Shown here: in pieces, positions 9,472-29,023 of the stretch
How positions within the stretch are numbered: position 1 is the first letter of the stretch
Layout: each line of letters starts with the position of its first letter
Assembly (NCBI GenBank): GCA_007125075.1
Contig: SLDX01000001.1
Coordinates: 16,539 to 80,538 of the forward strand
Direction: 5' to 3'
DNA from: Desulfonatronospira sp.
Lineage (GTDB): Bacteria > Desulfobacterota > Desulfovibrionia > Desulfovibrionales > Desulfonatronovibrionaceae
Length of the DNA stretch: 64,000 nt
Notes under the pieces: model-generated
The model's input: only the letters and a program-made list of their open reading frames with translations
The model's database searches: none
What the model was told of the DNA's origin: nothing
Translations under genes and position numbers: made by a program

Positions 9472-10461
9472 TCAGCCTCCCCTTTTGTTCCGGCTTTTGC
9501 CCTGCTTTTCTTTTGCGCGGGGATGAGCCTGATCGTAGATGCGCATGACCTCATCCAGATTCATGTGTGTATAGCGCTGAGTGGTGGATATGCGGCTGTG
9601 CCCCAGAAGCTCCTGAACCGTGCGCAGGTCTGCTCCCCCCTGCAGCAGATGGGTGGCGAAGCTGTGGCGCAGGGTATGCGGACTTACGCCCTGCACCTGT
9701 GCTCCAAAAAGAGCAAGGCGCCTGATGATCCTGAAGGCCTCTCTTCTGTTCAGCCTTCTGCCCCTGAGCCCCAGGAAAAGGGCCTTTTCCCTTAGAGAGG
9801 GACCAAAGGCGCTGCGCTGGGGTATATAATTTCTTAGTCTTTCACAGCCGGGTCTGGTCAAAAAAGCCAGGCGCTCCTTGCCCCCCTTGCCCTTGACCCG
9901 GACCAGGCCCTGTCCCAGATCCACATCTTCCAGGTCAAGTCCTGCAGCTTCACTTACCCGCAGGCCTGAACCGTAAAGGACTTCAGCCAGAGCCAGGTCG
10001 CGAAGATTTCTGGGACTTGGATCAATACTGGATTCCACCAGGCTAAGAGCCTGATCCACATTGAGCACCCTGGGCTGGGGGTGGTTTTTTCGGGGATTTT
10101 TGAGCCCTGCACAAGGATCATGGTCGATTTTTTTATTTTTTACCAGAAACCGGAAAAAACCGCGCAGAGAAGAAAGCTTCCGGGTAATAGAAGATTTTGC
10201 AAGTCCCTGCCTGTGCAGCTGAACCAGAAAACCCTGCACGTCAGTTCTGGCTATGGCCCCGGGTTGAGCACAGGATTTGCTTCTGGCCTGCAGAAAGGCT
10301 TCCCATTGTGCCAGATCCCGGCCATAGGCCCTTAGCGTGGCCGGGGAAAAACCTTTCTGCACATCCATATGGGCCAGAAAATACATGACATCTTCAGGCA
10401 GAACATCTGCTGTCCAGGACATATGTCTCTCAGCTCCGTCTTCGGTGTTTTGAACGTTCAT
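9472..10461 (-). CDS. xerC: Tyrosine recombinase XerC-type (true start may be a few codons downstream)
   Basis: LYGSGLRVSE, GKGGKER and HTLRHSFATHLLQGGADLRTVQELLGHSRISTTQRYT. Confidence 0.85.
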   Translation of the reverse strand: MNVQNTEDGAERHMSWTADVLPEDVMYFLAHMDVQKGFSPATLRAYGRDLAQWEAFLQARSKSCAQPGAIARTDVQGFLVQLHRQGLAKSSITRKLSSLRGFFRFLVKNKKIDHDPCAGLKNPRKNHPQPRVLNVDQALSLVESSIDPSPRNLRDLALAEVLYGSGLRVSEAAGLDLEDVDLGQGLVRVKGKGGKERLAFLTRPGCERLRNYIPQRSAFGPSLREKALFLGLRGRRLNRREAFRIIRRLALFGAQVQGVSPHTLRHSFATHLLQGGADLRTVQELLGHSRISTTQRYTHMNLDEVMRIYDQAHPRAKEKQGKSRNKRGG

Positions 10462-14858: not shown

Positions 14859-15189
14859 GTTGAATACCTGGATACCATCAGTTGCACAAACGGTCAATCA
14901 GGCCAACCCCGGCGCGCCTGTCTGCAGGTACAATTTTCCGGGGCCGGACAGGCAGATGATTGAGGCTTTTTTATTGTTGCCGCAAATAAAACAGTAGTTA
15001 ATTTTAAAGTAACTCCTTTCCAGATTTTTTTCCGGTTTAAAAAAACTGAGAAGCGGTGTTCAATACTGATCCGGAAGAATGTTTGCATAAAATACACTTT
15101 GATCAATCTCCTGCAGCTATTTCCTGCAGCAGCCCGGGGCTCGCAAAGCAGGGACTGCTCAGGAATTATTTAAGGCTTTGATTGCCGCC

Positions 15190-16590
15190 ATGGATGTTTC
15201 ACTGTTTTTGTATAATCTGATCAAAGCAATGGCCATGCGCCGCACGCGCCTGCGCAGCATCAGAAGGGTTCCCCGTTCCGAAATCCTTGCCCTGCAGCGC
15301 AGGCGCCTGGCTCACCTTCTGGAGTACGCCGCAAAGACGTCTTCTTTTTACCGCCGCCGCTGGAATGCAAGGGTACCACAGCCCGAAGATCTGTCCCGGC
15401 TTGAGCCTCTGGATAAGACAACGCTTATTGAACACTATGATGAAGTCCTGAGCGTTAAAGACCTGAGCCTGGATGACACCAGAAAATGGCTGAACGGAAA
15501 ACAGGATGCTCAACCTAAAAAATATATCTTCGCGGCTACTTCCGGAACTACCGGGCAACCCCTGGTCATTCCTTACCGGCTCAATGAATGGCGCGAAGGT
15601 ATGGCCTATATTATCAGAAGTGCAGAACTGGCCATTGAAGGCACCTGGGGCAGGGGCAGCGACCCGCTGTCCCTTCTTTACCTGATGCGCAAGCGCCCCA
15701 GAATTGCCGGGGTGAGCACTTTAAACCCTATTCATGTCAGCGCCCGGCTGACCAGAAGCTTTCGCGCAGGTATTGTGCCCAGCCTGCTTCTTTCCGCAGG
15801 AACGCCTCTGGAGCAGCAGCTGGAAGAGCTGAACCGCTTCAAGCCCACTGTGCTGGGAGGCTATCCGTCGGCAATAGCTCCTCTGGTAAAGGCAGCAGAA
15901 AAAAATAAACTGCACATAAGTCCAGAGCTGATAGTCACCGGAGGAGAAACCGTATCTCAGGCCCTGCGCCGGCTGGTGCGGAAAGTCTGGGGTCTTGAGC
16001 TTTTCGATTATTACGGCCTGGCCGAAACTCTGGTCATTGCGGGAGAGTGCCGCAGGCATCAGGGCCTGCACATCTATGAGGATGCCGTAGTTCTTGAAGT
16101 GGTCGATGAACAGGGCAAGCCTCTTCCGCCGGGCAAAACTGGACACAGTGTCCTGCTGACCTGCCTGTTCAACAAAACACTGCCCGTGATCCGCTATGAT
16201 GTCGGGGACATACTCTCTGTAAACGAGGAACCCTGTGCCTGCGGAACGCCCTTAAAACGCATAGTCTCCCTGGAGGGGAGAAAAGATGAACTGCTTGTTC
16301 TGCGCAGAAAAAACGGACAGCCGGTTGAGGTGCATCCGATTGTATTTGAGTCCGCTTTGCTGGGAATGGCTGAAATACGGCAGTTTCAGATTGACGTCCT
16401 TGCCGGGGAAAAGGTGCGCATCACCATCGTCCCTCATGGACACGCCGGAGATACCGTGCCCAAAGCTTTGTCAGCCCTGTCTGAAGCTCTATCACCTCTG
16501 GGGATCGGCGAGGATGTGCTCCAGATCAGGACCGCAACAGGCATCAAGAGCAGAAGAGGTCCCACTGACAAGCTGCTCCTTCGAACCTGA
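15190..16590 (+). CDS. Phenylacetate-CoA ligase family (PaaK/CapK-like) adenylate-forming enzyme
   Basis: ATSGTTGQP P-loop, YYGLAET, PVIRYDVGD and LEGRKDE motifs. Start at ATG 15190 or TTG 15178. Confidence 0.8.
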   Translation: MDVSLFLYNLIKAMAMRRTRLRSIRRVPRSEILALQRRRLAHLLEYAAKTSSFYRRRWNARVPQPEDLSRLEPLDKTTLIEHYDEVLSVKDLSLDDTRKWLNGKQDAQPKKYIFAATSGTTGQPLVIPYRLNEWREGMAYIIRSAELAIEGTWGRGSDPLSLLYLMRKRPRIAGVSTLNPIHVSARLTRSFRAGIVPSLLLSAGTPLEQQLEELNRFKPTVLGGYPSAIAPLVKAAEKNKLHISPELIVTGGETVSQALRRLVRKVWGLELFDYYGLAETLVIAGECRRHQGLHIYEDAVVLEVVDEQGKPLPPGKTGHSVLLTCLFNKTLPVIRYDVGDILSVNEEPCACGTPLKRIVSLEGRKDELLVLRRKNGQPVEVHPIVFESALLGMAEIRQFQIDVLAGEKVRITIVPHGHAGDTVPKALSALSEALSPLGIGEDVLQIRTATGIKSRRGPTDKLLLRT

Positions 16591-17126: not shown

Positions 17127-18689
17127 ATGAGATTATTGCACTTGTTCCGTGATTCCATCACAGTAAAAGTCATCTCATTGATTTCACTATTGGCGGTTAT
17201 CGTTTTTATAGTTTTGATTATTGTGAATTCTTACTGGCAAAGAGAGGATACAATAAATCAGATACAGTACATGGGACTTAGAACAACGGATCTTATAGAG
17301 CTCAACATTGAAGAACCAATGCTGATGGGAGACAACCTGGGAACCCACGAACAATTCGCAAGAATTGATAAGCTGTACGATGATCTTACGGTTTATCTGA
17401 CTGATTTTCGGGGTAATATCACCTATTCCACACGCAGGGATATGCTGCGCCAGGATGTAGATACAGTATACCCGGGCCGGACAGTGTCCAGGGCGGTCCA
17501 CGACAGTCTGAGCAGAGAGCTGGAAAGATCCGTCCTGGTGGAACTGGATGAAGGCTCCTTTTTCATGACCGTGCGTTCAGTGCCCAATGAATTCGATTGT
17601 TATCACTGCCACGGCAGTTCCCAGCCCATCCTGGGCAGCATGCTGGTCATGCAGAACATCGATGACGACCTGGCCCTGCTTCAAAGACATCAGATTCAAA
17701 ATGTGCTTCTGGGCCTTGGCTGTCTTCTGCTTTTGATCTTCACCCTGGTGTATTTTCTGAAAAAAACGGTCATCAACCGGATAACCAGCCTGCATGAAGT
17801 GGAAATGGAGGTCAGCCGGGGCAACCTGGACGCGCAGTTCAAGGACCTGGGTTCTGATGAACTGGGAAGGCTGGCCCATGGCTTTGCGCTGATGGTCAAC
17901 ATCCTGAAGCAGAAAATAAAAGAAGCTCAGGACAAGTCGGCCCTGGCTGAAAAACAGACCAGGGAAACCAGCCTGGCCATGCGGGAACTTATGGAAACTC
18001 AAAAAAAGCTGGTCCAGTCTGAAAGGCTGGCTGCCATTGGCGAAGCTGCGGCTCATCTGTCCCATGAAATTAAAAACCCGCTTATGCTCATGGCCGGATT
18101 TGCAAGGCAGGTAAAGCGCGGGGTGCCCCAAAACAGTGCAGAGCAAAAAAAACTGGATATCATTGTTGAGGAAGCCAGGCGTCTGGAAAAAATGCTCTAT
18201 CAGGTAAGGGACTTCACCAGACCGCGAAAACTTGAAAAGGAAAAGTGCCTGCTCAATCAGTTGATCTGCGATACACTAAAAATATTTGAAGATGAATTGC
18301 GGGAAATGAGGATCAGATGTCAGCTGGACCTGGAACCTGAACTGCCCATGATATACGTGGATAAAGACCAGATCAAACAGGTCCTGCTCAATCTGATCAA
18401 AAACTCCCTGGAAGCCATGTCCTCTGAAGACACCCTGACTATAGGCTCTCGTCTGGAGGAAGGTTTCCTACGTTTGTGGGTGGAGGACACAGGGTCCGGC
18501 ATTCCTCAGGAAAACATTAAAAACATTTTCAATCCCTTCTTCACCACAAAGGAGAGGGGCTCCGGCCTGGGTCTGGCCGTCAGTTACCGCATCATTCAGG
18601 ACCATGGTGGAGACATGCATCTGGAGAGCAAGTCCGGCTTGGGAACAAGATTCATACTTTATCTGCCGGTTAATGAATCGGAAAAATAA
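17127..18689 (+). CDS. Membrane sensor histidine kinase with periplasmic c-type heme motif, HAMP, HisKA and HATPase
   Basis: Two TM helices flanking a domain with CYHCH (17598-17612); H-box LSHEIKNPL; N/G1/F/G2 boxes (NLIKNS, DTGSGI, FNPFFTTK, GSGLGL). Confidence 0.9.
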   Translation: MRLLHLFRDSITVKVISLISLLAVIVFIVLIIVNSYWQREDTINQIQYMGLRTTDLIELNIEEPMLMGDNLGTHEQFARIDKLYDDLTVYLTDFRGNITYSTRRDMLRQDVDTVYPGRTVSRAVHDSLSRELERSVLVELDEGSFFMTVRSVPNEFDCYHCHGSSQPILGSMLVMQNIDDDLALLQRHQIQNVLLGLGCLLLLIFTLVYFLKKTVINRITSLHEVEMEVSRGNLDAQFKDLGSDELGRLAHGFALMVNILKQKIKEAQDKSALAEKQTRETSLAMRELMETQKKLVQSERLAAIGEAAAHLSHEIKNPLMLMAGFARQVKRGVPQNSAEQKKLDIIVEEARRLEKMLYQVRDFTRPRKLEKEKCLLNQLICDTLKIFEDELREMRIRCQLDLEPELPMIYVDKDQIKQVLLNLIKNSLEAMSSEDTLTIGSRLEEGFLRLWVEDTGSGIPQENIKNIFNPFFTTKERGSGLGLAVSYRIIQDHGGDMHLESKSGLGTRFILYLPVNESEK

Positions 18690-18872: not shown

Positions 18873-19934
18873 TTAAAAAAGACCGTACCTGTGCAGCTTG
18901 CGATAAATGGTTCTCCTGGATACCCCAAGCAGTCTGGCTGCTTCAGCCTTCTTGCCCAGCGCAGCCTCAAGGGCGCAGACCAGTTTTTCCCGTTCAGCCG
19001 CGCCTGAGTCCTGCTGGTGCCTGGCCCCGGCATTATGCTCCAGAATTTCTTCCGGCAGGTGTTCCGGTTCGACCATTTCTTCAGAGCAAAGCAATACACC
19101 GTGCTCCAGAGCGTGTTCAAGCTGGCGCACATTTCCCGGCCAGGGATAATCAAGCAGAATGCGCATGGCCTCCGGCGAAACTCCTTGAACGGGTTTCTTA
19201 AACTTCTCAGCATAAAGCCTGCAGAAATGATCAACAAGAAGGGGTATGTCCCCGGCTCTTTCCCGCAAACGGGGCATGTGGATATTCACCACCTTGAGAC
19301 GGTAATAAAGATCTTTGCGAAAACTTCCCTCAGCCACCTTACGCACCAGATCGGCATTGGTCGCGGCCACTATGCGCACGTCAGCCTTGCTCGTTTTTGA
19401 TTCTCCAACACGTTCATACTCCTTCTCCTGAAGAAAACGCAGAAGCTTAAGCTGGATATGCTGTGAGAGATCCCCGATTTCATCGAGGAATAATGTTCCA
19501 TTCTGAGCAGCCTCCACCCTGCCGGTCCTGTCGGTATGCGCCCCGGTAAACGCTCCCCGGACATGCCCGAAAAGTTCGCTGTCCAGAAGATTTTCAACCA
19601 GAGCCAGACAGTTGACCTTGATCTTGGGTCCTTTCCTGCGCGGACTTATGGCGTGCAGAGCCTCGGCGACGAGTTCCTTGCCTGTGCCGGTCTCTCCGGT
19701 GATGAGCAAGGTGGTGTCCACCCCGGCCACCTGCTGCAGCAATGTGAACAGATTCCGCATCTGCCTGCTGCGGCCGATAAGTTTATGAAAAGAATTCATG
19801 GGACAGGAATGCTGCTGACCATAAAATTGCGGATCAGGCTTCTTTAATTTGCCCTGACTGAGCAAATCCCTCTCCGGCAAGTCCCACAGCGGAACAGTGG
19901 AGGAATCTTTCCGGATTATTGGCAAATACTGCAT
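18873..19934 (-). CDS. Sigma54-dependent enhancer-binding protein lacking an N-terminal sensory/receiver domain
   Basis: AGGAGG RBS before ATG 19934; ~45-aa leader, then GETGTGKE, GAFTGA, LFLDEIG, FRKDLYYRL, WPGNVRQL and a Fis-type HTH. Confidence 0.9.
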   Translation of the reverse strand: MQYLPIIRKDSSTVPLWDLPERDLLSQGKLKKPDPQFYGQQHSCPMNSFHKLIGRSRQMRNLFTLLQQVAGVDTTLLITGETGTGKELVAEALHAISPRRKGPKIKVNCLALVENLLDSELFGHVRGAFTGAHTDRTGRVEAAQNGTLFLDEIGDLSQHIQLKLLRFLQEKEYERVGESKTSKADVRIVAATNADLVRKVAEGSFRKDLYYRLKVVNIHMPRLRERAGDIPLLVDHFCRLYAEKFKKPVQGVSPEAMRILLDYPWPGNVRQLEHALEHGVLLCSEEMVEPEHLPEEILEHNAGARHQQDSGAAEREKLVCALEAALGKKAEAARLLGVSRRTIYRKLHRYGLF

Positions 19935-20047
19935 TCCCTGCCTCCTTAGTCTTTCCAGTTTCACAGATCCTTTAAAAGACCTGCAACTTTAATCCCCTGC
20001 CATGGTGTTGTCAGTCAGCAAAGCGCATGATGCTCAAAAATAATACT

Positions 20048-20063
20048 AGCAAGGCAGATGCCA
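20048..20063 (-). promoter_or_regulatory. Sigma54 (-24/-12) promoter of the input-less EBP gene
   Basis: TGGCATCTGCCTTGCT with GG-N10-GC spacing; predicted TSS ~20037. Confidence 0.75.
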
Positions 20064-20113
20064 GAATCTTTTTCAGCAGAAATAAGCGGATTCATGTCTC
20101 AGGGATCCGAACA

Positions 20114-20150
20114 TGACAAAATTTTGCGCTCGAGTTACGTTTCTTGCGCA
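20114..20150 (-). promoter_or_regulatory. Tandem upstream activator sites (UAS) for promoter 20048-20063
   Basis: Plus-strand TGACAAAATTTTGCGCT (20114-20130) and GTTACGTTTCTTGCGCA (20134-20150), matching the pair at 21743-21780. Confidence 0.6.
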
Positions 20151-20391
20151 CCCAGAGCTTGACTGCAATGATCCATGAATCAAAAGGTTCCCTGGACGGT
20201 TTTCAGCCTACCCTGAATCCGTGAAAACAGGCTGCGAAAAATGACTTCACTGATTCAGCGCCTACCACAAAATCCGGTCTGTCCAGGAGCATGCAGCTGG
20301 ACCTTTTGAAAACCGGACTTAATGATTAAGGACAGTACCGGTGAGGTCAGTTGTCAGGTGAAAAGATGAAGGAAGGGTAAGAGATTTTTGG

Positions 20392-21303
20392 CTATGAATT
20401 CTCTAGAGCCAGCTCGGGGTATACTTTCTGGAGGAAGCTCAGCTGGGAATTATTAAATCCCTTAACTATTCCTGGTTCAAGATTCAAAAAGTAATTTACG
20501 GCTTTGCCGCTTAAATTGTTATGCAGCAGCATCAGCTGAAAATTTCCCGCCTGCCTATACTCTTTGTATCTCTTGTATGTGTTGCTGGTCAGTTTATATA
20601 TGTAATCGTACAAGGGTATTTTGGATGGCAGCCTGTTGCATAAATCCATCATGCACTGCAAAGATTTATACACATTTGCACGCAGACCGACTGCCGGAGC
20701 GTTTACTTTGGAATAATAACGCTCAGGCCCGAACGCTTCAAAAGGAAAAAGCTTCGTATAGAATTTCTTATGTCTTGGATGGACCATTATACATATGTCA
20801 TCTACACCATGATACAGGCAATACCAGTAAATCGCCTGTATCTGATACAGAAATATCTTCTTGTTCCTGAACTGGCAACTGGTAGCTAGAGAAGATATTT
20901 CTACAATACTGCGTCCCCTGTCTCTGAGGATATCCAGTTCAGGTCTGTATAAAGCATCCATTGGCAGGCCGAACTCTTCAGAACTTTGAATTCCTGTCAG
21001 ATTGGAAACCGCTTTTTGATGATCACTTGCAACAGCATGAACAGTTCCTGGAAGAAGGGAATAAACTGAAAAAAGCATTCCATGATCTTTTTCTTCAGGA
21101 ACAAGACCTCTTTTCAGGTAGCTTTCATATACCAGTGAAAATATTTTTTCCAGGTCATAGGTGCAGCTTGCGTATTTGATGTCAAGACTGCTCATCTCAA
21201 TTTCATTAAAACCGGATACTCTGAGCCGTGCATCCTGATCACTGTTTAAAGTATCATATTTAATGTTGTCATATGAATTTTGCAAATCTGGTAAGTGACC
21301 CAT
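20392..21303 (-). CDS. FeeM-like N-acyl amino acid synthase (GNAT fold)
   Basis: LVYESYLKRG, FGLPMDALYRPELDILRDRGRSIVEISSLA, DDICIMVHPRHKKFY and YYSKVNAPAVGL resemble the FeeM/NAS family. GAGG RBS 8 nt before ATG 21303. AT-rich. Confidence 0.72.
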   Translation of the reverse strand: MGHLPDLQNSYDNIKYDTLNSDQDARLRVSGFNEIEMSSLDIKYASCTYDLEKIFSLVYESYLKRGLVPEEKDHGMLFSVYSLLPGTVHAVASDHQKAVSNLTGIQSSEEFGLPMDALYRPELDILRDRGRSIVEISSLATSCQFRNKKIFLYQIQAIYWYCLYHGVDDICIMVHPRHKKFYTKLFPFEAFGPERYYSKVNAPAVGLRANVYKSLQCMMDLCNRLPSKIPLYDYIYKLTSNTYKRYKEYRQAGNFQLMLLHNNLSGKAVNYFLNLEPGIVKGFNNSQLSFLQKVYPELALENS

Positions 21304-21675
21304 AATAAGCACCTCGAATATATTAGATGTTGATCATTAATACAAAATACGCCAAGAATTAATTATATAACTGTATTAATATATGCAAACATAAAACGCT
21401 ATCAAACTGGATAATAAATAATTAAATATTAATAATTGTTAAAGGTTGCTCATATTTTACAATGAATTCTTTAATTTCTGCATTAAAAATGCCTTCCAAA
21501 AATTTTATCATTGATAATCTTCAGACTTCAACGTCAGCTTGCTCAGACACTGGACTGTTGATGTAAATATTTCGCTGGTTTTTCTAATGGAAAAACATGG
21601 AAATTAACTCGAAAATGAATTAGCATGGATTGCATTGAGATTAATGTCCGCCTGAAGGCAAATCGGGAACGCTCA

Positions 21676-21691
21676 TGCAATCCAGGTGCCA
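21676..21691 (-). promoter_or_regulatory. Sigma54 (-24/-12) promoter directed at the feeM-like gene
   Basis: TGGCACCTGGATTGCA, near-consensus with GG-N10-GC; predicted TSS ~21665. Confidence 0.78.
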
Positions 21692-21742
21692 ACAATTGTG
21701 TCCAGTAAAAATAATTGCTTGCAAATTTTTGTTTGTCTGCTC

Positions 21743-21780
21743 AAAACAAATTTTGTACATTTGGTTACAAATTTTGCGCA
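21743..21780 (-). promoter_or_regulatory. Tandem upstream activator sites (UAS) for promoter 21676-21691
   Basis: AAAACAAATTTTGTACA (21743-21759) and GTTACAAATTTTGCGCA (21764-21780), 21-bp period; also contains TTTGT-N10-ACAAA. Confidence 0.62.
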
Positions 21781-22035
21781 CCGGGGTTTAAGCAAGGTAA
21801 TTATTTTTCCTGAATTTTTTTTAACCCTATAAAACCTGTTTCTTATCCTGATATATACGTCCTGAGATGTAAGCATGACGACTTAGAAACCTTCAGGCCG
21901 AATCCGGGCAGCTTGCAGGGCAGGACGCACATAATGCCTTACAGGAATAATCCTGGAACTTTTTTTAGAAGGTCATCAAGCTGCAGCTGATATTTTTTAT
22001 AAATATTTCAGAGACATAGGAGATTTATTACGCCT

Positions 22036-23505
22036 ATGAAACATACTTTTTCGCGGATGAGCATCACCGCAAGACTTTTATCCTGGTCTCTGGTCCTGAT
22101 GCTGATCTTTTACTCAATAACCATATACTTTTTTTTCAGTATAAGAGATCTGGTTTCGACCACCGACCGGATAGTGAACAAGGATCTGGAAGTAGTCGCG
22201 ATCACAGAGCAGCTGGTTGATACCACTCTTCTTTTTGTTGAAAACCGCAGAAAATACCAGATTCTGGGACGGGAACAGTATTTTGAAGCTTCTCTTAATC
22301 ACCTTAATCTGCTGGAAGAGCTCCTGGAGGATCTGCCGAGGGATTTTTCCTTTGCCGGAATCAATCCCGAGGTGCGGGAACTGGTCCTGAACATGGAAGA
22401 GTTCGGTTCATCCCCGGTACAAGATATCTCCCTGCCCAGCGAAGAGGCCCTGTCCTCGTGGATCCAGGACATAACCAACCTGCGGGCAAGCTATCTGGAA
22501 AACGTCAATGACCGGATGCAGAGCATGTATGTCCGGGGTGTTCAGGCTCAGACCTTCGGCTTTCTAGGCCTGGGCCTGGTTGCTTTTCTGGCCATTGCAG
22601 GCAGCCTGGCAATTGCTTTTTTTCTCAACAGGTCAATGCGTGAATTCAGAAAAGGTCTATTCAGACTGGCCCGCAACGAAGAATTCGAACCGGTCAGAGT
22701 AACTTCTCACGGAGAACTTGGTGAACTGGCCCGGGCATTCAACAAAATGGGCTTGAAACTCAAACGGGAGGAGGAAATGCGCTCCCAGTTCATATCCACC
22801 CTGAGCCATGAGATAAGAACGCCTTTAACCAGCATCATGGAGTCCATTAACCTGGTCCGGGACGGTGTGGCAGGCAACAGCCGTGACGCACAATCCAGGT
22901 TTCTGGACATAGCCCACAAAGAGACCCTGAGACTCTCAGAGCTTTTACAGCGCCTTATGCAGACCGCTACCATGGAATCCGGAAGCATACAGCTGGAACC
23001 GGGAGAAATCGCTATTGACAAACTCCTCTGGGATGGGGTTGACAGAATATATCCGACAGCCAGGGCTGCAGACGTGCGGGTCAAGGTAGTCAGCAGCGGT
23101 ACCGGCAGAAATGTGATGGCGGACATCAGCCATGTCCAGCAGGTTCTTTTTAATCTCCTGGGCAATGCAGTGAAATTTTCTCCTCCCGGTTCAGAAGTGA
23201 TTCTTTCATACGAACCCTGCGCCCAGGGAAATACCCTGCAGATCTGCGTTGCCGACCAGGGATCCGGAGTGTCTGAGGATGAAAAGGATCTGGTCTTCGA
23301 GCGCTACTACTGCGGAAAGAATACGAAGAACATTACTGATGGTGCAGGGCTGGGCCTGAGCATTTCCAGACAGATAATCAGAGCCCATGGAGGTGATCTG
23401 TGGCTGGAAAGCACCTCTTCGGCGGGAAGCATGTTCTGCTTCACACTTCCTCTGGCTGATGAACGAAACAAAGACAACAGGGTAGACCATGAGCATACTG
23501 TATAA
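22036..23505 (+). CDS. HAMP-domain sensor histidine kinase (GlrK/QseE-like position)
   Basis: Two TMs, helical periplasmic domain, HAMP, LSHEIRTPL, NLLGNAVKF, DQGSGV and GAGLGL. Confidence 0.9.
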   Translation: MKHTFSRMSITARLLSWSLVLMLIFYSITIYFFFSIRDLVSTTDRIVNKDLEVVAITEQLVDTTLLFVENRRKYQILGREQYFEASLNHLNLLEELLEDLPRDFSFAGINPEVRELVLNMEEFGSSPVQDISLPSEEALSSWIQDITNLRASYLENVNDRMQSMYVRGVQAQTFGFLGLGLVAFLAIAGSLAIAFFLNRSMREFRKGLFRLARNEEFEPVRVTSHGELGELARAFNKMGLKLKREEEMRSQFISTLSHEIRTPLTSIMESINLVRDGVAGNSRDAQSRFLDIAHKETLRLSELLQRLMQTATMESGSIQLEPGEIAIDKLLWDGVDRIYPTARAADVRVKVVSSGTGRNVMADISHVQQVLFNLLGNAVKFSPPGSEVILSYEPCAQGNTLQICVADQGSGVSEDEKDLVFERYYCGKNTKNITDGAGLGLSISRQIIRAHGGDLWLESTSSAGSMFCFTLPLADERNKDNRVDHEHTV

Positions 23506-24160
23506 ATTAAGATATGGATATCGATTTGCCTGGCCGGTGCTGCTGCTTATAATCCTTATGACCGGCTGTGTGGGGATCAAAAGCGATAACAGGGACACTC
23601 CGGCGACACGGCAAGGCCTGTTATTGACGGATCCGGGGGGTGAATACCTGCAGACTGCACTGGCCGGTTTTGCGGCGGGCAACTATCTGGAGGCAAGAAA
23701 GGATTTCCTGCAGGCAAAAAATAACACAGACAACCCAAAGATAAGCAGTCAGGCTGAATTCGGGATAATTCTGACCAGAATGCTCAGCGCTGAAAATCTT
23801 ACTGAGTTCAGCATCCACCAGAGAAATTTTGAACAATTTTTAGACCGGGACGATGAAAAGTATCTGCCGGACCGGAAGATGACTGCTCCATTCGTATCTG
23901 CCATGGCTGATAATCTACTCATGAAAAAGAGAATAGAATCATTGCAGGCCGATTACAGAAAAGCTCTTGATCAGCTGCACCAGGCAGAAGACGACAAGGA
24001 AGCTCTCAAGACCCGGTATAATATAAGCATGCGCAAATTAAGCGAACTGGAAGAAAAGAATCAAAGCCTTAAGAATCAGATTAAAGAGCTGGAAGAGCTC
24101 TTTGAGTTGATTGATCAACAAAAACGTCTCCTTGAACAAAATGAATCAAGACAAAGATAA
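23489..24160 (+). CDS. Lipoprotein with TPR-like helices and C-terminal coiled coil (QseG/YfhG-like position)
   Basis: Lipobox LMTG|C; overlaps both the kinase and the regulator genes; heptad-rich C-terminus. Confidence 0.75.
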   Translation: MSILYKLRYGYRFAWPVLLLIILMTGCVGIKSDNRDTPATRQGLLLTDPGGEYLQTALAGFAAGNYLEARKDFLQAKNNTDNPKISSQAEFGIILTRMLSAENLTEFSIHQRNFEQFLDRDDEKYLPDRKMTAPFVSAMADNLLMKKRIESLQADYRKALDQLHQAEDDKEALKTRYNISMRKLSELEEKNQSLKNQIKELEELFELIDQQKRLLEQNESRQR

Positions 24161-25508
24161 GAACAACGACCTGTATTCAATCCTGGTAGTCGATGATGAC
24201 GAGAGCATCCTTCAGCTCCTGGAGGCCCGTCTTTCAGCGGCCGGCTACCAGGTAACCACCGCCTGTAACGGCACACAGGCTCTGGAAATGATGGAGCTGC
24301 TGCCTTTTGATCTTGTCCTGACCGATGTCAAAATGCCCGGGCTGGACGGCCAGGAACTGCTCGCGGAAATAAAAAGGACCTGGCCGGGAATTCCGGTGAT
24401 GCTGCTCACAGCATATGGAAACATACCTGATGCGGTTAAAGCCATTCAACTTGGAGCTGCCGATTATCTGACCAAGCCCTTTGACGGACAGGAGCTTGTG
24501 TCCGGAATCAAGGACCTGCTTGCCAGGACATATCCTACTGTAAACGCGGAACTGGTTGAAGAATGCGGTATTGTCTGCGGAAAAAGCTCTTCCATGTCCA
24601 CCCTTCTCCGGATGATGCACAGAATTGCCGGCAGCGATGTCTCTATTTTGATTCAGGGAGAATCAGGAACCGGCAAGGAACTGGTGGCCAACGCCATCCA
24701 CAAATGGAGCAGCCGCAGTAAAGGACCATTCGTAGTCATCGATTGTGGATCGACTCAGACCACTCTTATTGAGAGCGAACTTTTCGGGCATGTAAAAGGC
24801 GCTTTCACTCATGCGGTCCAGGACAAGAAGGGCCTTATCGAGACCGCTCACAAAGGGACACTGTTCTTTGATGAGATCGGAAATATTTCCATGGAGATGC
24901 AGACCAGGCTTCTGCGCTTCCTGCAGGAAAGGACGCTTAGAAGAGTCGGGGATACCCGCTCAATTGAGGTTGACTGCAGAATCCTGGCCGCGACCAATGC
25001 CAACCTGAGTGAAATGGTCAGATCAGGCGCTTTCAGAGAAGACCTGTTCTACAGGCTTAAAGTAGTCAGGCTGGAAGTTCCGGCGCTGCGCCAGCGCATC
25101 GAAGACCTGCCCCTTCTGACAGATTATTTTTTGAACATCTTAAAAAGCAGGCATGAAATTGGAAATCTTGAATTAACCCCTGCTGCACTGGAAAAAATGC
25201 ATGAACATGCCTGGCCTGGAAATGTGAGAGAGCTGTTCAATGTGCTGGAGGCGGGAGCGCTTCTATCCCCGGACGGGCTGATCAAGCCTGAGGACCTTCA
25301 GCTGGAACATGCTTTTGCTGAAATTGAGCAGGCCGATGAATCCTTTTCCCTGGATGAAAATGAAAAAAAGGCGGTTATTCGAGCACTGGAAAAAACCGGC
25401 TGGGTGCAGAAGCGAGCCGCTGAAATACTGGGAATAAGCAGAAGGGCCATACATTACAAGATTCGCAAGCACAATATTGCCATTCCATCCCGGTGCTCAA
25501 GCAAATGA
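24141..25508 (+). CDS. Sigma54-dependent response regulator (REC-AAA-HTH, GlrR/NtrC family)
   Basis: ILVVDDD, LTDVKMPG, YLTKPF; GESGTGKE, GAFTHA (variant of GAFTGA), FDEIG, FREDLFYRL; HTH SRRAIHYKI. Start set at ATG 24141. Confidence 0.92.
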   Translation: MNQDKDKNNDLYSILVVDDDESILQLLEARLSAAGYQVTTACNGTQALEMMELLPFDLVLTDVKMPGLDGQELLAEIKRTWPGIPVMLLTAYGNIPDAVKAIQLGAADYLTKPFDGQELVSGIKDLLARTYPTVNAELVEECGIVCGKSSSMSTLLRMMHRIAGSDVSILIQGESGTGKELVANAIHKWSSRSKGPFVVIDCGSTQTTLIESELFGHVKGAFTHAVQDKKGLIETAHKGTLFFDEIGNISMEMQTRLLRFLQERTLRRVGDTRSIEVDCRILAATNANLSEMVRSGAFREDLFYRLKVVRLEVPALRQRIEDLPLLTDYFLNILKSRHEIGNLELTPAALEKMHEHAWPGNVRELFNVLEAGALLSPDGLIKPEDLQLEHAFAEIEQADESFSLDENEKKAVIRALEKTGWVQKRAAEILGISRRAIHYKIRKHNIAIPSRCSSK

Positions 25509-25564: not shown

Positions 25565-28500
25565 TCAGAGAAGACCGTACCTGTGCAGCTTGCGGTACAG
25601 AGTTCTGCGGGAAATGCCCAGGATCCTGGCAGCCTCGGTCTTTTTTCCCTTTGCCATCCGCAGAGCATCCGCAAGACTCTCCTTGTCCACTTTTCCAACG
25701 CTTTCCTGGAGCCGGCTGGACTCTTGAACTTCAAAAATCTCATCCGGCAGGTGTTCGGGCTCTATCAGTCCTCCGGGGCAGAGCAGGGTCCCGTGTTCCA
25801 GGACATGCTCCAGCTCGCGAACGTTTCCGGGCCATGTGTGTTCGCGGAGCCTGCGCATGGTTCTGGTGGATACGCCGCGGACGGGTTTGTCGAACTTCTC
25901 CGCGAAATGCCTGCAGAAGTGATGAATAAGCATGGGGATGTCCTCGCCCCGCTCTCTGAGGCCTGGCGCCCGGATATGGATTACCTTGAGCCTGTAATAC
26001 AGGTCCCTGCGAAAGTTGCCCTCTTCTATTTTTGCGGCCAGGTCGGCATTGGTTGCGGCCACTATGCGCACGTCCGCCCTGCGGGTCTTTGATTCCCCCA
26101 CCCGTTCATACTCCTTTTCCTGGAGGAAACGCAGCAGCTTGAGCTGAATACGCCCGGTAAGATCCCCTATCTCGTCCAGAAACAGGGTTCCCCCTTCAGC
26201 CGCCTCCACCCGCCCGATCTTGTTCGCGTAGGCCCCGGTAAAGGCCCCGCGGACATGCCCGAACAGCTCGCTGTCCAGGAGCTCCTCGGACAGGGTCAGG
26301 CAGTTGACCTTGATCAGCGGGGCATTGCTGCGCGGGCTTGATGCATGCAGGGCCTCGGCGATGAGCTCCTTGCCCGTACCGGTTTCACCGGTGATGAGCA
26401 CGGTGGTGTCCACACCGGCCACCTGCTGGAGCATGGCGTATATATGCTGCATCTTCCTGCTGCGCCCGATGATGCCGTGAAATGAATTTTTCCTGGTTGA
26501 ACTCTCGAGCAGGTATTCATAGCGCTGCCTGCTTTCACGCAAAGCCTCCTCAGCCTGCTTGCGTTCGGTGATGTCGATGGCCGCCTGAAGCCTGACCATA
26601 TGTCCGTCAGTCCATCTTATGGCTATATCCTGACAATCAAACCATTTCTTTGTTTTTGTATTCTGACACTCCCAATGATAAAAGCCGGTTGACCGGCCCT
26701 GATCGTCAATCAGCCTGGAGTTTGTACAAAAGGAGCATGGCCCGCTCTGATCCGCCTGGAAAACCGCCCAGCACTTTTGGCCCACAACGTTTCCATGAGT
26801 TTTTCTGACAGCCTCATTTGTAAACAGGATCTCGTGGGACTGCATGTCCGCCACATATATATTAGAATTTGCATTATCAAGTATGGCCAGAAGAGTCTGG
26901 TGCGCTTCCCTGATCCGGCTTTCAGCCTGCTTGCGCTCTGTAATGTCCATCATCACTCCATTCCAGACAATGCACCGCTCATGCACTTTATTGGGGCTGG
27001 AATGGGCATGCACCCATTTTGTTTTCCCTTCAGGAGTAAAGATGCGCAATTCCTGCTCCCAGGGCTTAAGGGTTGTGGCTGATTCATGAATGGAGGCCAT
27101 GAACTCGTCCCTGTCCTCGGGATGGACTTTGTTTACAATCCGTTCCAGAGTCAGGGGCATATCAATATCCAGAGCAGGTTTGCCGTATATTTCCTCAATG
27201 CCGGAGCTGATATACTCTATTGACTGATTGCCGCTGTCTTCCATGAGAAACTGAAAAACCGCTCCGGGTATGCCTTCATTCACGTCCCGCAGGAACTTTT
27301 CACTGTTTCTAAGCTTTTCTTCTGCATCCAGCCTGGCCATGACATTGGAGACGATTTCAGCCAGGACCTTTAAAAGACCAATCTCTGACTCAGCAAAGGA
27401 CCTGTTCTCCTGGATGATGTCAAAGCCTACAAAGCCGGAATTTATTCCCTTGTGCATCAAAGGAATATTGACAATGGATTTGATCCCCTGGTCCTGCAGA
27501 TGGCTTCTCAGATCCACATTCCCGGATATTTCAGCAAGGTCATGGATGTAGAACGCCTTATTTTTTTGAAGGACTTCAAGAATTTCAGAAAAAAAGCTGA
27601 AGGGTATCTCCTGCAGGCTCTCAATTTCAGAACACACTCCTTCAGCGCACCATTCATGGGTGTTCCTGGTGATCTGCCGGACATGGTCGTGCATGAAAAT
27701 ATACGCCCGGTCCACGCGGGTGAACATGCCGATGGTTTCAAGCATTTCATTGAGGGCCTTGTCCACCTCCTCCAGGGAAATATTAATGAATCCGGTGGCC
27801 AGATTCATGAGCAGGCGCTGCAGAGCCTCATATTCACGCATCTTGGTTTCAGCCTGCCTGCTCTCGGTAACATCCACGCCCACAGCCCAGGTATCGATTC
27901 CTGAAAAGGTAATTTCCGGGGGCAGGTTGGACCAGAGAATGTGACGTACGCTTCCGTCCCTGGCGGTCAGGGCAAGTTCCCTGTTTTTGAACGACAGCTC
28001 TTTTTTCCATTCGCTCAGGATCTGCTCGCCAAGATCCGACTCCGGGTACAAAATGGACATGGCCTCGGGATTGCCTATTATCTCACGGCTTGAATAACCG
28101 GTTATTTCTTCACAGGCCTTGTTCCAGTAGGTAAACAGCCCCTCCTTCGTTCCGGCATTGATCATAATTGGAAGGTTTTCAACCAGGGTTTGAAATCTTT
28201 TCTCGCTTTCCCTGAGGTCCTTTTCCGTCCGCTTTGCTTCCGTAACATCCAGGGCAAAACCGATGGTTCCGGTGATTCCGCCCTGATCATCGCGGCAGGG
28301 AAATTTCTCGGTCAGGCTCCAGCCTAACTGCCCTGCTGACTTCTTGTGTCTTTCAGAAATATTTTTGAGCGGCCTGCCGGAAGTAATTACTTTCTGGTCG
28401 TCTTGACTGCATTTCCTGGCCACGCACTTGGAGTTGATATCAAAATCGGTTCTGCCCTTAAGATCTTTAAGCTCGATGCCCACGGTTTTGCAGAACAGCC

Positions 28501-29023
28501 TGTTGGCATGAATATACCGCCCCTGAACATCCTTGTACCAGACCATGACCGGAACCGTATCCAGGATGACGGACATTTCCTTGCGAGTGGCCTCAAGCTC
28601 CAGCTCTGCCCTCTTTTTTTCGGTGATGTCTGAAACAAAGCCTTGATAACAAGCTATGTTTCCCTGGCTGTCCCTTATGGCCTGAATGCTTCTGAACCCC
28701 CAGAACAAAGAACCGTCCCTGCGAAGAAACCGGCATTCATGGTTGAGCATTTCTTCTGATTTTTCCAGAAGAAGATGCATTTTTTCTCTGTCCATCGGGT
28801 CGGCATAGAGCTGGTTGGGGATGTCTGTGACTGAATCGATCATTTCTTGAGGAGAATCATAGCCGAACATCCTGGCCAGAGCGGAATTGACCAGAACAAA
28901 GCGCCCGTCAGGGGTGGAAACTGATACGCCGATGGGGGCGTTATTCAGAATCTCCTGATAGTTGAGAATGCTTAAATCCATATTTTGACATCCGTCTTGC
29001 CGCAGCAAGCTCTCGTTAAGCAT
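25565..29023 (-). CDS. Multi-sensor sigma54 enhancer-binding protein (3 PAS, GAF, 2 PAS, AAA+, HTH)
   Basis: Repeated PAS starts (ILNNAPIG, ILDTVPVM, LVENLPIM, VNEGIPGA, ILDNANSN) with DITE-type ends; GAF (VDRAYIF...THEWCAEG); intact GETGTGKE/GAFTGA/DEIG; GGAGG RBS. Confidence 0.92.
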   Translation of the reverse strand: MLNESLLRQDGCQNMDLSILNYQEILNNAPIGVSVSTPDGRFVLVNSALARMFGYDSPQEMIDSVTDIPNQLYADPMDREKMHLLLEKSEEMLNHECRFLRRDGSLFWGFRSIQAIRDSQGNIACYQGFVSDITEKKRAELELEATRKEMSVILDTVPVMVWYKDVQGRYIHANRLFCKTVGIELKDLKGRTDFDINSKCVARKCSQDDQKVITSGRPLKNISERHKKSAGQLGWSLTEKFPCRDDQGGITGTIGFALDVTEAKRTEKDLRESEKRFQTLVENLPIMINAGTKEGLFTYWNKACEEITGYSSREIIGNPEAMSILYPESDLGEQILSEWKKELSFKNRELALTARDGSVRHILWSNLPPEITFSGIDTWAVGVDVTESRQAETKMREYEALQRLLMNLATGFINISLEEVDKALNEMLETIGMFTRVDRAYIFMHDHVRQITRNTHEWCAEGVCSEIESLQEIPFSFFSEILEVLQKNKAFYIHDLAEISGNVDLRSHLQDQGIKSIVNIPLMHKGINSGFVGFDIIQENRSFAESEIGLLKVLAEIVSNVMARLDAEEKLRNSEKFLRDVNEGIPGAVFQFLMEDSGNQSIEYISSGIEEIYGKPALDIDMPLTLERIVNKVHPEDRDEFMASIHESATTLKPWEQELRIFTPEGKTKWVHAHSSPNKVHERCIVWNGVMMDITERKQAESRIREAHQTLLAILDNANSNIYVADMQSHEILFTNEAVRKTHGNVVGQKCWAVFQADQSGPCSFCTNSRLIDDQGRSTGFYHWECQNTKTKKWFDCQDIAIRWTDGHMVRLQAAIDITERKQAEEALRESRQRYEYLLESSTRKNSFHGIIGRSRKMQHIYAMLQQVAGVDTTVLITGETGTGKELIAEALHASSPRSNAPLIKVNCLTLSEELLDSELFGHVRGAFTGAYANKIGRVEAAEGGTLFLDEIGDLTGRIQLKLLRFLQEKEYERVGESKTRRADVRIVAATNADLAAKIEEGNFRRDLYYRLKVIHIRAPGLRERGEDIPMLIHHFCRHFAEKFDKPVRGVSTRTMRRLREHTWPGNVRELEHVLEHGTLLCPGGLIEPEHLPDEIFEVQESSRLQESVGKVDKESLADALRMAKGKKTEAARILGISRRTLYRKLHRYGLL

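What the first reader, a model, noticed from the sequence alone, without database searches (positions are those of the whole stretch)
20048..21780. Two sigma54 promoters with the same tandem enhancer geometry
Seen: promoter B TGGCATCTGCCTTGCT (TSS ~20037) has sites at about -77..-93 and -97..-113. Promoter A TGGCACCTGGATTGCA (TSS ~21665) has sites at about -78..-94 and -99..-115. The distal sites share GTTAC-N5-TTGCGCA, and the proximal sites share ACAAA(A)TTTTG. The flanking DNA otherwise looks unrelated, so the matched motif and phasing point to selection. Inference: one activator controls both genes, defining a new binding motif and mini-regulon.
Basis: partly seen in the sequence, partly recalled or inferred. 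Interest (0 to 1): 0.75.

Follow-up and report, generated by a model that had tools for sequence, protein, structure and literature searches.

The report
Two sigma-54 promoters sharing one enhancer
Two genes in a soda-lake sulfate reducer, a lipid-amide synthase and a sensor-less activator, have sigma-54 promoters with the same pair of upstream binding sites, and comparison with relatives points to the neighbouring kinase-lipoprotein-regulator system as their switch; this is a well-supported but ordinary kind of bacterial gene control.

Summary
Both -24/-12 promoters (20048-20063 and 21676-21691, minus strand) are canonical. They are the only strict matches in the window.

Each promoter has two copies of one asymmetric 17-bp motif, GTTAC-N5-TTGCNCA. 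The copies lie 20-21 bp apart, at about -116..-97 and -94..-77. DNA outside the sites and promoters is no more alike between the two modules than shuffled sequence.

The same motif, at the same distance from the -12 element, precedes sigma-54 promoters in eight species-level sequences from at least two families.

The protein that travels with the motif is the divergently encoded response regulator at 24111-25508. It has REC, AAA+ and HTH domains, a GAFTHA loop and the recognition helix ISRRAIHYKIRKHNI. It sits in a kinase-lipoprotein-regulator operon.

The input-less activator (18873-19937) and the PAS activator have a different helix. No orthologue of either was found in relatives that keep the motif.

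Most likely this two-component system switches on a FeeM-like N-acyl amino acid synthase. In this genus it also switches on a second, input-less activator, giving a short cascade.

This is a new motif and regulon for an uncharacterised NtrC-family regulator, so a new member of a known kind. The scan had not noted this on other DNA.

The parts
21676..21691 (-). Sigma-54 promoter A (TGGCACCTGGATTGCA). Predicted +1 is near 21665. It drives the FeeM-like gene through a leader of about 360 nt.
   Evidence: The GG and GC elements are kept while the spacer varies in G003 (TGGCACTTGGATTGCA) and G020 (TGGCATCAGATTTGCT).
21764..21780 (-). Upstream site A, distal. The sense strand reads TGCGCAAAATTTGTAAC, at -115..-99.
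   Evidence: It is 100% identical in G003. G020, L049 and L051 carry equivalent sites at the same position.
21743..21759 (-). Upstream site A, proximal. The sense strand reads TGTACAAAATTTGTTTT, at -94..-78, 21 bp from the distal site.
21692..21742 (-). Spacer between site A and promoter A. It is unusually conserved and contains AAATTTGCAA near -60, which G020 also has. It may be a bending or accessory site; its role is unresolved.
   Evidence: It is 86% identical to G003, against 50-55% in the flanks.
20048..20063 (-). Sigma-54 promoter B (TGGCATCTGCCTTGCT). Predicted +1 is near 20037. It drives the input-less activator through a leader of about 100 nt.
   Evidence: G003 has TGGCATCCAACTTGCT at the same place.
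20134..20150 (-). Upstream site B, distal. The sense strand reads TGCGCAAGAAACGTAAC, at -113..-97.
   Evidence: G003 has TGCGCAAAAAGCGTAAC.
20114..20130 (-). Upstream site B, proximal. The sense strand reads AGCGCAAAATTTTGTCA, at -93..-77, 20 bp from the distal site.
20392..21303 (-). FeeM-family N-acyl amino acid synthase gene, the target of promoter A. Its GC content is below the genome average.
   Evidence: PF21926, 144.6 bits against a cut-off of 27. A 303-aa product is on record. GC is 33-43% against 49% for the genome.
18873..19937 (-). Input-less sigma-54 activator, the target of promoter B. It has an AAA+ domain with GAFTGA and an HTH, and no sensory domain. It is a paralogue of the C-terminal third of the PAS activator.
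   Evidence: Pfam. It is 68% identical in protein and 74% in DNA to residues 837-1152 of the 25565-29023 product. Its HTH is SRRTIYRKLHRYGLF.
22036..23505 (+). Sensor histidine kinase. It has two membrane helices around a periplasmic domain of about 135 aa, then HAMP, HisKA and HATPase domains. It is the first gene of the operon divergent from promoter A.
   Evidence: Orthologues are 62-91% identical in G003, G020, G008 and G042.
23489..24160 (+). Lipoprotein with lipobox LMTG|C and a coiled-coil C-terminus. It lies between the kinase and regulator genes and has no family match.
   Evidence: A gene of about 200 aa with no Pfam family sits in the same position in L013, L046, L047, L048, L049, L050 and L051.
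24111..25508 (+). Response regulator of the NtrC family (REC, AAA+ with GAFTHA, HTH_8). It is the proposed binder of the four sites.
   Evidence: Its HTH, ILGISRRAIHYKIRKHNI, is unique among about 16 activators in the genome and nearly invariant in orthologues. Its operon lies next to the motif in every species examined.
25565..29023 (-). Multi-PAS sigma-54 activator, shown as context. It has the same type of recognition helix as the input-less activator and is probably not the binder of these sites.
   Evidence: No orthologue of this clade was found in G020 (best hit 47%).

Best explanation
Both elements are sigma-54-dependent promoters with a short enhancer. The enhancer consists of a strong distal and a weaker proximal copy of one asymmetric 17-bp site, GTTAC-N5-TTGCNCA. 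The two copies lie two helical turns apart, and the proximal copy ends about 50 bp upstream of the -24 element.

Proposed mechanism:
- The phosphorylated response regulator encoded at 24111-25508 (REC, AAA+ with GAFTHA, Fis-type HTH) binds both sites.
- It assembles into the active AAA+ ring and contacts sigma-54 holoenzyme bound at -24/-12 by looping the short intervening DNA.
- Its partner kinase (22036-23505) has a periplasmic sensor domain and is co-encoded with a lipoprotein (23489-24160). The input is therefore probably an envelope or periplasmic signal.

Outputs:
- Output 1 is a FeeM-like N-acyl amino acid synthase. This output is conserved across families.
- Output 2 is an input-less sigma-54 activator. 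It is specific to this genus. Its amount, not its activity, would be what is controlled, so the system forms a two-tier activator cascade.

What is shown: the sequences, their conservation, their constant geometry, and their co-occurrence with the regulator operon. What is inferred: binding, sigma-54 dependence in vivo, the start sites, the signal and the targets of the second activator.
For: 1. Promoters. Both are canonical, correctly oriented and intergenic. rpoN is present in the genome. In relatives the GG and GC elements are kept while the spacer bases change.

2. Footprint against G003. Identity is 100% for the A sites, 94% for promoter A and 86% for the A spacer, against 50-55% in the flanks. 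It is 86% for the B sites and 81% for promoter B, against 52% in the flank.

3. Specificity. Weight matrices built on one module find the other. The tandem pattern hits only these modules in 401 genomes, with an empty control.

4. Geometry. In nine modules (G000 A and B, G003 A and B, G020, G008, L049, L051, L022) the distal site starts at -116 to -113 and the proximal site ends at -78/-77.

5. Regulator assignment.
- Orthologues of the regulator (55-93% identical) all carry G[AS]FTHA and LGISRRA[IM]HYK[IV].
- In G003, G020, G008, G042, L048, L049 and L051 the kinase-lipoprotein-regulator operon lies next to the motif.
- This holds even where the target is not FeeM. In G008 it is a Zn_protease / 7TM-transglutaminase / ATP-grasp operon. 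In G042 it is small secreted and DUF1328 proteins plus a glycine-zipper lipoprotein.
- G020 keeps the motif and the regulator (79-80% identical, same helix) but has no orthologue of the other two activators (best 47%).

6. The regulator's helix is unique among the activators of this genome.

7. GAFTHA is a tolerated natural variant (PMC4641369).
Against: - There are no transcript or binding data.
- In locus L022 (a FeeM paralogue) the same motif and geometry lie next to a different regulator set: a 415-aa protein, a stand-alone REC and a 342-aa activator with another helix. No orthologue of the proposed regulator is on that 17-kb contig.
- In L050 and L052 no site was found next to the orthologous operon.
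- The site is asymmetric, whereas Fis-type HTH dimers usually bind inverted repeats.
- The orientation of the proximal copy differs between lineages: direct in G000, G003, G020 and L051; inverted in G008, L049 and L022.
- No integration-host-factor site was recognisable in the short loop.
- Sigma-70-like hexamers occur in the AT-rich FeeM leader, so promoter A may not be the only promoter.
Confidence: 0.72

Rival explanations
1. The sites are bound by the input-less activator (18873-19937), by its parent the PAS activator (25565-29023), or by both. Promoter B would then be a positive autoregulatory latch, and promoter A its output.
For: Both proteins are encoded beside the sites, and they share a near-identical recognition helix (SRRT[IL]YRKLHRYGL[FL]). 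The arrangement is conserved in G003. Autoregulated input-less activators are known.
Against: G020 keeps the promoter, both sites and the geometry, yet has no orthologue of this clade (best 47%; genome 89% complete). G008, G042, L049 and L051 carry the motif next to the kinase-lipoprotein-regulator operon, with no such activator nearby. The recognition helix differs from that of the regulator at most specificity positions.
Confidence: 0.12
2. The 17-mer is recognised by another factor tied to FeeM-type loci, not by the divergent response regulator. It could be an unlinked regulator, or an activator of the L022 type.
For: In L022 the same motif and geometry occur with a different adjacent regulator set. 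Related palindromes such as TGGGCAAAATTTTGCCCA lie upstream of other FeeM paralogues that have other regulators.
Against: The motif also occurs next to the regulator operon where no FeeM gene is adjacent (G008, G042, L048). No other DNA-binding protein is shared by all the loci. An orthologue of the regulator could lie elsewhere in the L022 genome, and L053 shows such an orthologue beside a DUF1302 gene like the one that follows FeeM in L022.
Confidence: 0.1
3. The resemblance is chance, or a leftover of a segmental duplication, with no regulatory meaning.
For: Two strict promoter matches in 64 kb arise in 9 of 100 shuffles. The region is AT-rich.
Against: The modules predict each other genome-wide. 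The pattern has no hits in the control and no other hits in 401 genomes. The sites are conserved against diverged flanks. The same geometry recurs in other genera and another family. The spacer and flanks of A and B are no more alike than shuffles.
Confidence: 0.02

Closest known systems
NtrC at glnAp2, and similar NtrC-family enhancers such as DctD and ZraR
   Same: A REC-AAA+-Fis-HTH regulator, paired upstream sites on the same face of the helix about 80-140 bp upstream of a -24/-12 promoter, and a partner histidine kinase.
   Different: The site is a different, asymmetric sequence (GTTAC-N5-TTGCNCA). The activation loop reads GAFTHA. The protein scores below the NtrC equivalog cut-off (399.6 against 558.6). 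The distance to the promoter is fixed and unusually short, with the proximal site ending at -77.
GlrK(QseE)-QseG-GlrR(QseF) and the glmY promoter of enterobacteria
   Same: The gene order kinase, lipoprotein, sigma-54 response regulator, with a sigma-54 promoter next to the operon. This comparison rests on general knowledge of that system.
   Different: The regulator scores below the GlrR cut-off (379 against 763). The lipoprotein matches no Pfam family. The known GlrR site, TGTC-N10-GACA in three copies, is unlike this motif (from memory). The targets here are protein-coding genes, not a small RNA.
PrsK-PrsR-PrsT and the PEP-CTERM box (Haft 2006, PMC1569441)
   Same: A kinase, a sigma-54 response regulator and a lipoprotein; a 17-nt motif, sometimes repeated, about 63 nt upstream of a sigma-54 motif; and an assignment made by co-occurrence. 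FeeM-type synthases are often annotated as associated with exosortase systems, and some paralogue loci here carry PEP-CTERM genes.
   Different: The regulator is below the PrsR cut-off (352 against 502.6). No exosortase was found in this 97%-complete genome. The PEP-CTERM motif ends in TTTACA and is not the same site.
Sigma-54 regulators of Desulfovibrio vulgaris mapped by DAP-chip and comparative genomics (PMC3333781, PMC4641369)
   Same: The same order of bacteria, many activators per genome, and motifs defined by operon-adjacent conserved sites. The DVU3334 site CGTTACATTTTGTAACG shares the GTTAC half-site and the AT-rich centre. GAFTHA occurs in DVU2894.
   Different: No listed D. vulgaris motif equals GTTAC-N5-TTGCNCA. 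The only D. vulgaris GAFTHA protein is a one-component flagellar regulator. No FeeM-type target is described there.
Activator cascades and input-less activators (FleQ to FleR, Myxococcus Nla cascades, PspF, HrpR/HrpS)
   Same: One sigma-54 activator drives transcription of another. The second activator lacks a sensory domain, so its level sets its output. This comparison rests on general knowledge.
   Different: The input-less protein is below the PspF cut-off (265.9 against 443.55). No anti-activator partner is evident. Its targets are unknown.

Membership tests
Sigma-54-dependent promoter | GG at -24 and GC at -12 with the canonical TGGCAC-N5-TTGCW spacing, in an intergenic region and oriented toward a gene | tested here: met
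   The conserved GG/GC with variable spacer in relatives is shown.
Sigma-54-dependent promoter | The organism encodes sigma-54 (RpoN) | tested here: met
   PF04552 at G000:C77, 208.7 bits.
Sigma-54-dependent promoter | The transcript starts about 12 nt downstream of the GC, and transcription depends on RpoN and an activator | not testable with these tools
Upstream activator sequence of an NtrC-family regulator | Repeated sites roughly 70-150 bp upstream of the promoter, conserved in orthologous regions and co-occurring with the regulator gene | tested here: met
Upstream activator sequence of an NtrC-family regulator | The site is an inverted repeat, as expected for a Fis-type HTH dimer | tested here: not met
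   Only an inner CAAA-N-TTTG dyad is seen in some copies. The outer arms, GTTAC and GCNCA, are not symmetric.
NtrC-family response regulator (bacterial enhancer-binding protein) | REC domain, sigma-54 interaction AAA+ domain and HTH_8 | tested here: met
   PF00072, PF00158 and PF02954.
NtrC-family response regulator (bacterial enhancer-binding protein) | GAFTGA loop that contacts sigma-54 | tested here: inconclusive
   The loop reads GAFTHA in all orthologues. The literature lists it as a tolerated variant, but it is untested for this protein.
NtrC proper (TIGR01818), GlrR (NF011695), ZraR (NF007689), AtoC (NF008469), PrsR (TIGR02915) | Score above the curated equivalog cut-off | tested here: not met
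   The scores are 399.6 against a cut-off of 558.6, 379.3 against 763, 376.1 against 760, 396.6 against 714 and 352.2 against 502.6.
QseE-QseG-QseF type trio | The lipoprotein belongs to the QseG/YfhG family | tested here: not met
   The 223-aa lipoprotein has no Pfam or NCBIfam hit. Only the gene order and a lipobox are shared.
PEP-CTERM/exosortase regulatory system | Exosortase present in the genome | tested here: not met
   PF09721 was not found in G000, which is 97% complete.
FeeM N-acyl amino acid synthase family (PF21926) | Domain score above the gathering threshold | tested here: met
   144.6 bits against a cut-off of 27. Enzyme activity was not tested.
PspF-type input-less activator | AAA+ domain plus HTH with no N-terminal regulatory domain | tested here: met
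   The AAA+ domain begins at residue 62 and no other domain is present.
PspF-type input-less activator | PspF equivalog score (TIGR02974) | tested here: not met
   265.9 bits against a cut-off of 443.55.

The most novel reading that the evidence does not exclude
The kinase-lipoprotein pair senses the lipo-amino acid made by the FeeM-like synthase, or the envelope state that it creates. The conserved kinase-lipoprotein-regulator/FeeM unit would then be a self-inducing, quorum-sensing-like loop built on sigma-54. In this genus it would be coupled to an input-less activator that locks in or broadcasts the decision.

The conserved pairing of FeeM with this system across two families is compatible with this reading. 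The loci where the same regulator drives unrelated envelope genes instead argue for a more general envelope sensor.
Probability: 0.1. Interest if true: 0.75.

Novelty: new member of a known kind. Interest (0 to 1): 0.38.

Why it matters
It gives an uncharacterised but widespread clade of sigma-54 response regulators a predicted binding site, a strikingly fixed enhancer geometry and a conserved target. The clade is marked by G[AS]FTHA and ISRRA[IM]HYK. It occurs in Desulfonatronospira, Desulfonatronovibrio, Desulfonatronum and Paucidesulfovibrio, as well as in metagenome sequences labelled only as other Thermodesulfobacteriota.

The conserved target is a FeeM-type N-acyl amino acid synthase. 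The physiological role of these enzymes in their native hosts is mostly unknown. Knowing that one is under tight, signal-dependent control by an envelope-type sensor makes its function testable in cultured relatives such as Desulfonatronovibrio hydrogenovorans and Desulfonatronum species.

The second promoter shows how a truncated activator paralogue can be wired beneath an existing two-component system. The mechanism itself is textbook.

Tried and rejected
- A metagenome scan with the FeeM protein found no relatives. The genome-contig scan returned only the sister MAG.
- Weight-matrix and pattern scans of the whole genome for further regulon members found only chance hits, either inside genes or with no sigma-54 promoter and no second site nearby.
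- An Rfam search of 19800-22100 found nothing in the long FeeM leader.
- I looked for an integration-host-factor consensus between the sites and the promoters by eye, and none was convincing.
- I tried to derive the site of the PAS/input-less activator clade from the promoter next to its paralogue on contig C16. tRNA genes intervene and no clear motif emerged.
- Module B as a recent duplication of module A is rejected, because similarity outside the sites is at shuffle level.
The genes are 74% identical in DNA.
Full report
**Context**

The window comes from a Desulfonatronospira metagenome-assembled genome. The sister genome is labelled as such. The assembly is 2.17 Mb, 49% GC and 97% complete.

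Around the finding the genes are:

| Coordinates | Strand | Product |
|---|---|---|
| 15178-16590 | + | adenylate-forming ligase |
| 17127-18689 | + | histidine kinase |
| 18873-19937 | - | sigma-54 activator with no sensory domain |
| 20392-21303 | - | FeeM-family N-acyl amino acid synthase |
| 22036-23505 | + | histidine kinase, first gene of a divergent operon |
| 23489-24160 | + | lipoprotein, 223 aa |
| 24111-25508 | + | response regulator (REC, AAA+, HTH) |
| 25565-29023 | - | multi-PAS sigma-54 activator, 1152 aa |

**Observation**

- TGGCATCTGCCTTGCT (20063..20048, minus strand) and TGGCACCTGGATTGCA (21691..21676, minus strand) are the only matches to TGGCAY-N5-TTGCW in the window.
- They are two of nine such matches in the genome.
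- They score well above all weaker -24/-12 candidates in the window.

Each promoter points at a gene. Promoter B has a leader of about 100 nt before the input-less activator. Promoter A has a leader of about 360 nt before the FeeM-like gene. The leaders are AT-rich.

The four sites, read on the sense strand, are:

| Site | Sequence | Position |
|---|---|---|
| A distal | TGCGCAAAATTTGTAAC | -115..-99 |
| A proximal | TGTACAAAATTTGTTTT | -94..-78 |
| B distal | TGCGCAAGAAACGTAAC | -113..-97 |
| B proximal | AGCGCAAAATTTTGTCA | -93..-77 |

They align in one register as variants of a single 17-mer. Each promoter therefore has two direct copies 20-21 bp apart, not two different motifs.

**Is it more than chance?**

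- A weight matrix made from B alone ranks A first in the genome after B itself. A matrix from A plus the G020 sites ranks B second apart from the A module itself and its one-base-shifted copy.
- No other tandem pair exists in the genome. The two other matches to the single-site pattern lie inside genes.
- A degenerate tandem pattern derived from the five modules then known was searched in 401 genomes of the order. It hit only those five modules, and the reversed control hit nothing.
- Between modules A and B, only the site block is more alike than shuffled sequence (0.65 against a maximum of 0.60). The spacer, the upstream flank and the leader are at shuffle level. The shared layout is therefore not a leftover of a recent duplication.

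**Conservation**

In the sister species (G003, also held as L021) both modules are present. Identity to G000 is as follows:

| Region | Module A | Module B |
|---|---|---|
| Sites | 100% | 86% |
| Promoter | 94% | 81% |
| Spacer | 86% | 75% |
| Upstream flank | 55% | 52% |

The leader downstream of promoter A is 50% identical and the 5' leader of B 67%. The flanks are also interrupted by insertions and deletions.

In a second genus (G020, FeeM 65% identical) the FeeM gene has the promoter TGGCATCAGATTTGCT. Its sites are TGGGCAAAAACGTAAC and TGTACCAAATTGGTTCA, at the same positions.

The same layout appears in several other sequences:
- L049, a metagenome contig: TGCGCAAAAAACGAAAC plus an inverted GTTTCACTTTTTGCCCA.
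- L051, from Desulfonatronum parangueonense, which belongs to another family.
- G008, which is Desulfonatronovibrio hydrogenovorans.
- L022, a locus with a FeeM paralogue.

In nine modules the distal site starts at -116 to -113 and the proximal site ends at -78/-77.

G042 has two further promoters with site pairs in the opposite orientation and further upstream, at -160..-123 and -144..-105. Orientation independence is expected of an enhancer.

The consensus across all copies is GTTAC-N5-TTGCNCA with an AT-rich centre. The distal copy is always the better match. In some lineages the proximal copy is degenerate or inverted.

**Which activator?**

The response regulator at 24111-25508 has orthologues at E <= 1e-125 in only five of 27 genomes of the family. 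More orthologues, 55-74% identical, exist in metagenomes, Desulfonatronum and Paucidesulfovibrio. All of them carry G[AS]FTHA and the helix LGISRRA[IM]HYK[IV].

In G003, G020, G008, G042, L048, L049 and L051 the kinase-lipoprotein-regulator operon lies beside a copy of the motif. In all of these except L048 a canonical sigma-54 promoter follows the motif. The regulated gene differs between loci:
- FeeM in G003, G020, L049 and L051.
- A Zn_protease / 7TM-transglutaminase / ATP-grasp operon in G008.
- A small secreted protein, a DUF1328 protein and a glycine-zipper lipoprotein in G042.
- A decayed remnant of the Zn_protease gene in L048.

The regulator is the only DNA-binding protein common to these loci, and its helix is unique among the activators of this genome.

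The input-less activator and the PAS activator share a different helix, SRRT[IL]YRKLHRYGL. They belong to a clade with no orthologue in G020 (best hit 47%). G020 nevertheless keeps the motif.

I therefore assign the sites to the response regulator, with about 0.7 confidence.

GAFTHA is listed as a tolerated variant of the sigma-54 contact loop in Desulfovibrio vulgaris (PMC4641369). The consistent pairing of these GAFTHA proteins with canonical -24/-12 promoters supports that view.

**Mechanism**

What is shown:
- The kinase has two membrane helices around a periplasmic domain of about 135 aa.
- The middle gene encodes a lipoprotein with the lipobox LMTG|C.

What is inferred:
- An envelope or periplasmic signal leads to phosphorylation of the regulator.
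- The regulator occupies the strong distal and weak proximal sites cooperatively and forms the active ring.
- It contacts the closed sigma-54 complex over a loop of only about 50 bp. The invariance of that distance suggests a strict face-of-helix requirement.
- The A spacer is also conserved (86%, with AAATTGCAA shared with G020), which may reflect a bending element.

Output 1 is the FeeM-like synthase, which is the conserved partner of this system.

Output 2 occurs only in this genus. It is an input-less activator 68% identical to the C-terminal third of the neighbouring PAS activator. It would be controlled by its abundance and would presumably act at the PAS activator's targets, which remain unknown. 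No strong terminator separates FeeM from promoter B, so read-through from promoter A may add to its expression.

**Caveats**

- L022 has the motif and geometry next to a different set of regulators.
- L050 and L052 have the operon but no recognisable site next to it.
- The site is asymmetric, which is unusual for a Fis-type HTH dimer.
- Sigma-70-like hexamers occur in the FeeM leader.

**Comparison with known systems**

The layout is the classical NtrC-type enhancer.
- The gene trio resembles GlrK-QseG-GlrR and PrsK-PrsR-PrsT (PMC1569441).
- The regulator is nevertheless below every curated equivalog cut-off.
- The lipoprotein has no family match, and no exosortase is present.
- None of the D. 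vulgaris motifs tabulated in PMC3333781 equals this one. The nearest is the DVU3334 site CGTTACATTTTGTAACG, which shares one half-site.
- The tandem-site pattern was not found outside these lineages.

**Verdict**

It is a new motif and regulon for an uncharacterised regulator clade, which makes it a new member of a known kind. Interest is moderate at 0.38. It lies mainly in the conserved link between an envelope-type two-component system and a FeeM-like synthase, the fixed enhancer geometry, and the wiring of a truncated activator beneath it.

Earlier notes of this scan cover only this same window. Nothing similar had been noted on other DNA.

Noticed in passing
window 18873-19937 and 25565-29023: The input-less activator is a paralogue of residues 837-1152 of the PAS activator. 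Identity is 68% in protein and 74% in DNA, and the recognition helices are near-identical. A third member of this clade (1167 aa) sits on contig C16 of the same genome.
   Followed up: partly
window 21692-21742: The spacer between site A and promoter A is 86% identical to G003. It holds AAATTTGCAA near -60, and G020 has AAATTGCAA at the same position. It may be an accessory or bending site. No integration-host-factor consensus was seen.
   Followed up: partly
window 20095-20110; L046 11924-11930: GGATCC lies just downstream of the proximal B site in both G000 and G003, and between the two sites in G008. This may be coincidence.
   Followed up: no
window 21362-21405 (minus strand): Two sigma-70-like promoter matches (TTGATA-16-TATATT and TTTGCA-16-TATAAT) lie in the AT-rich FeeM leader. 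They could give basal expression independent of sigma-54. The region is poorly conserved in G003.
   Followed up: no
window 20392-21800: The FeeM gene and its leader have 33-43% GC against a genome average of 49%, which suggests acquisition from elsewhere. Even so, FeeM is the conserved neighbour of this two-component system across families.
   Followed up: partly
L022 6690-6729 (PWGP01000359.1): A FeeM paralogue followed by DUF1302 and TP_0789-like genes has the same motif as a perfect inverted pair, at the same distance from CGGCACTGGCTTTGCT. The divergent genes there are a 415-aa coiled-coil protein, a stand-alone REC and a 342-aa activator with a different helix.
   Followed up: partly
L048 about 1040-1240 (ERZ27265986 contig; offsets 177-370 of the reverse-complemented 425-1414 segment shown): An orphan copy of the site (TGCGCAAAAATCGTAAC) lies next to the operon. 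It has no canonical promoter, and what looks like the 3' remnant of a Zn_protease gene follows, suggesting a decayed target.
   Followed up: no
L015 about 9600-9850 (G008:C14): Another FeeM paralogue has the sigma-54-like promoter TGGTATCCATTTTGCT. A perfect palindrome, TGGGCAAAATTTTGCCCA, lies about 190-205 bp upstream, beside a different response regulator (35% identical). FeeM-type genes in this family seem to be placed under sigma-54 control repeatedly.
   Followed up: no
L025 10899-12877: FeeM paralogue pairs in related metagenome contigs lie next to PEP-CTERM-domain proteins. The window's own genome shows no exosortase.
   Followed up: partly
window 20046-20064 (minus strand): The terminator scan reports a weak hairpin followed by a T-run that overlaps promoter B itself. 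It is probably an artefact of the promoter sequence and the AT-rich start region.
   Followed up: no
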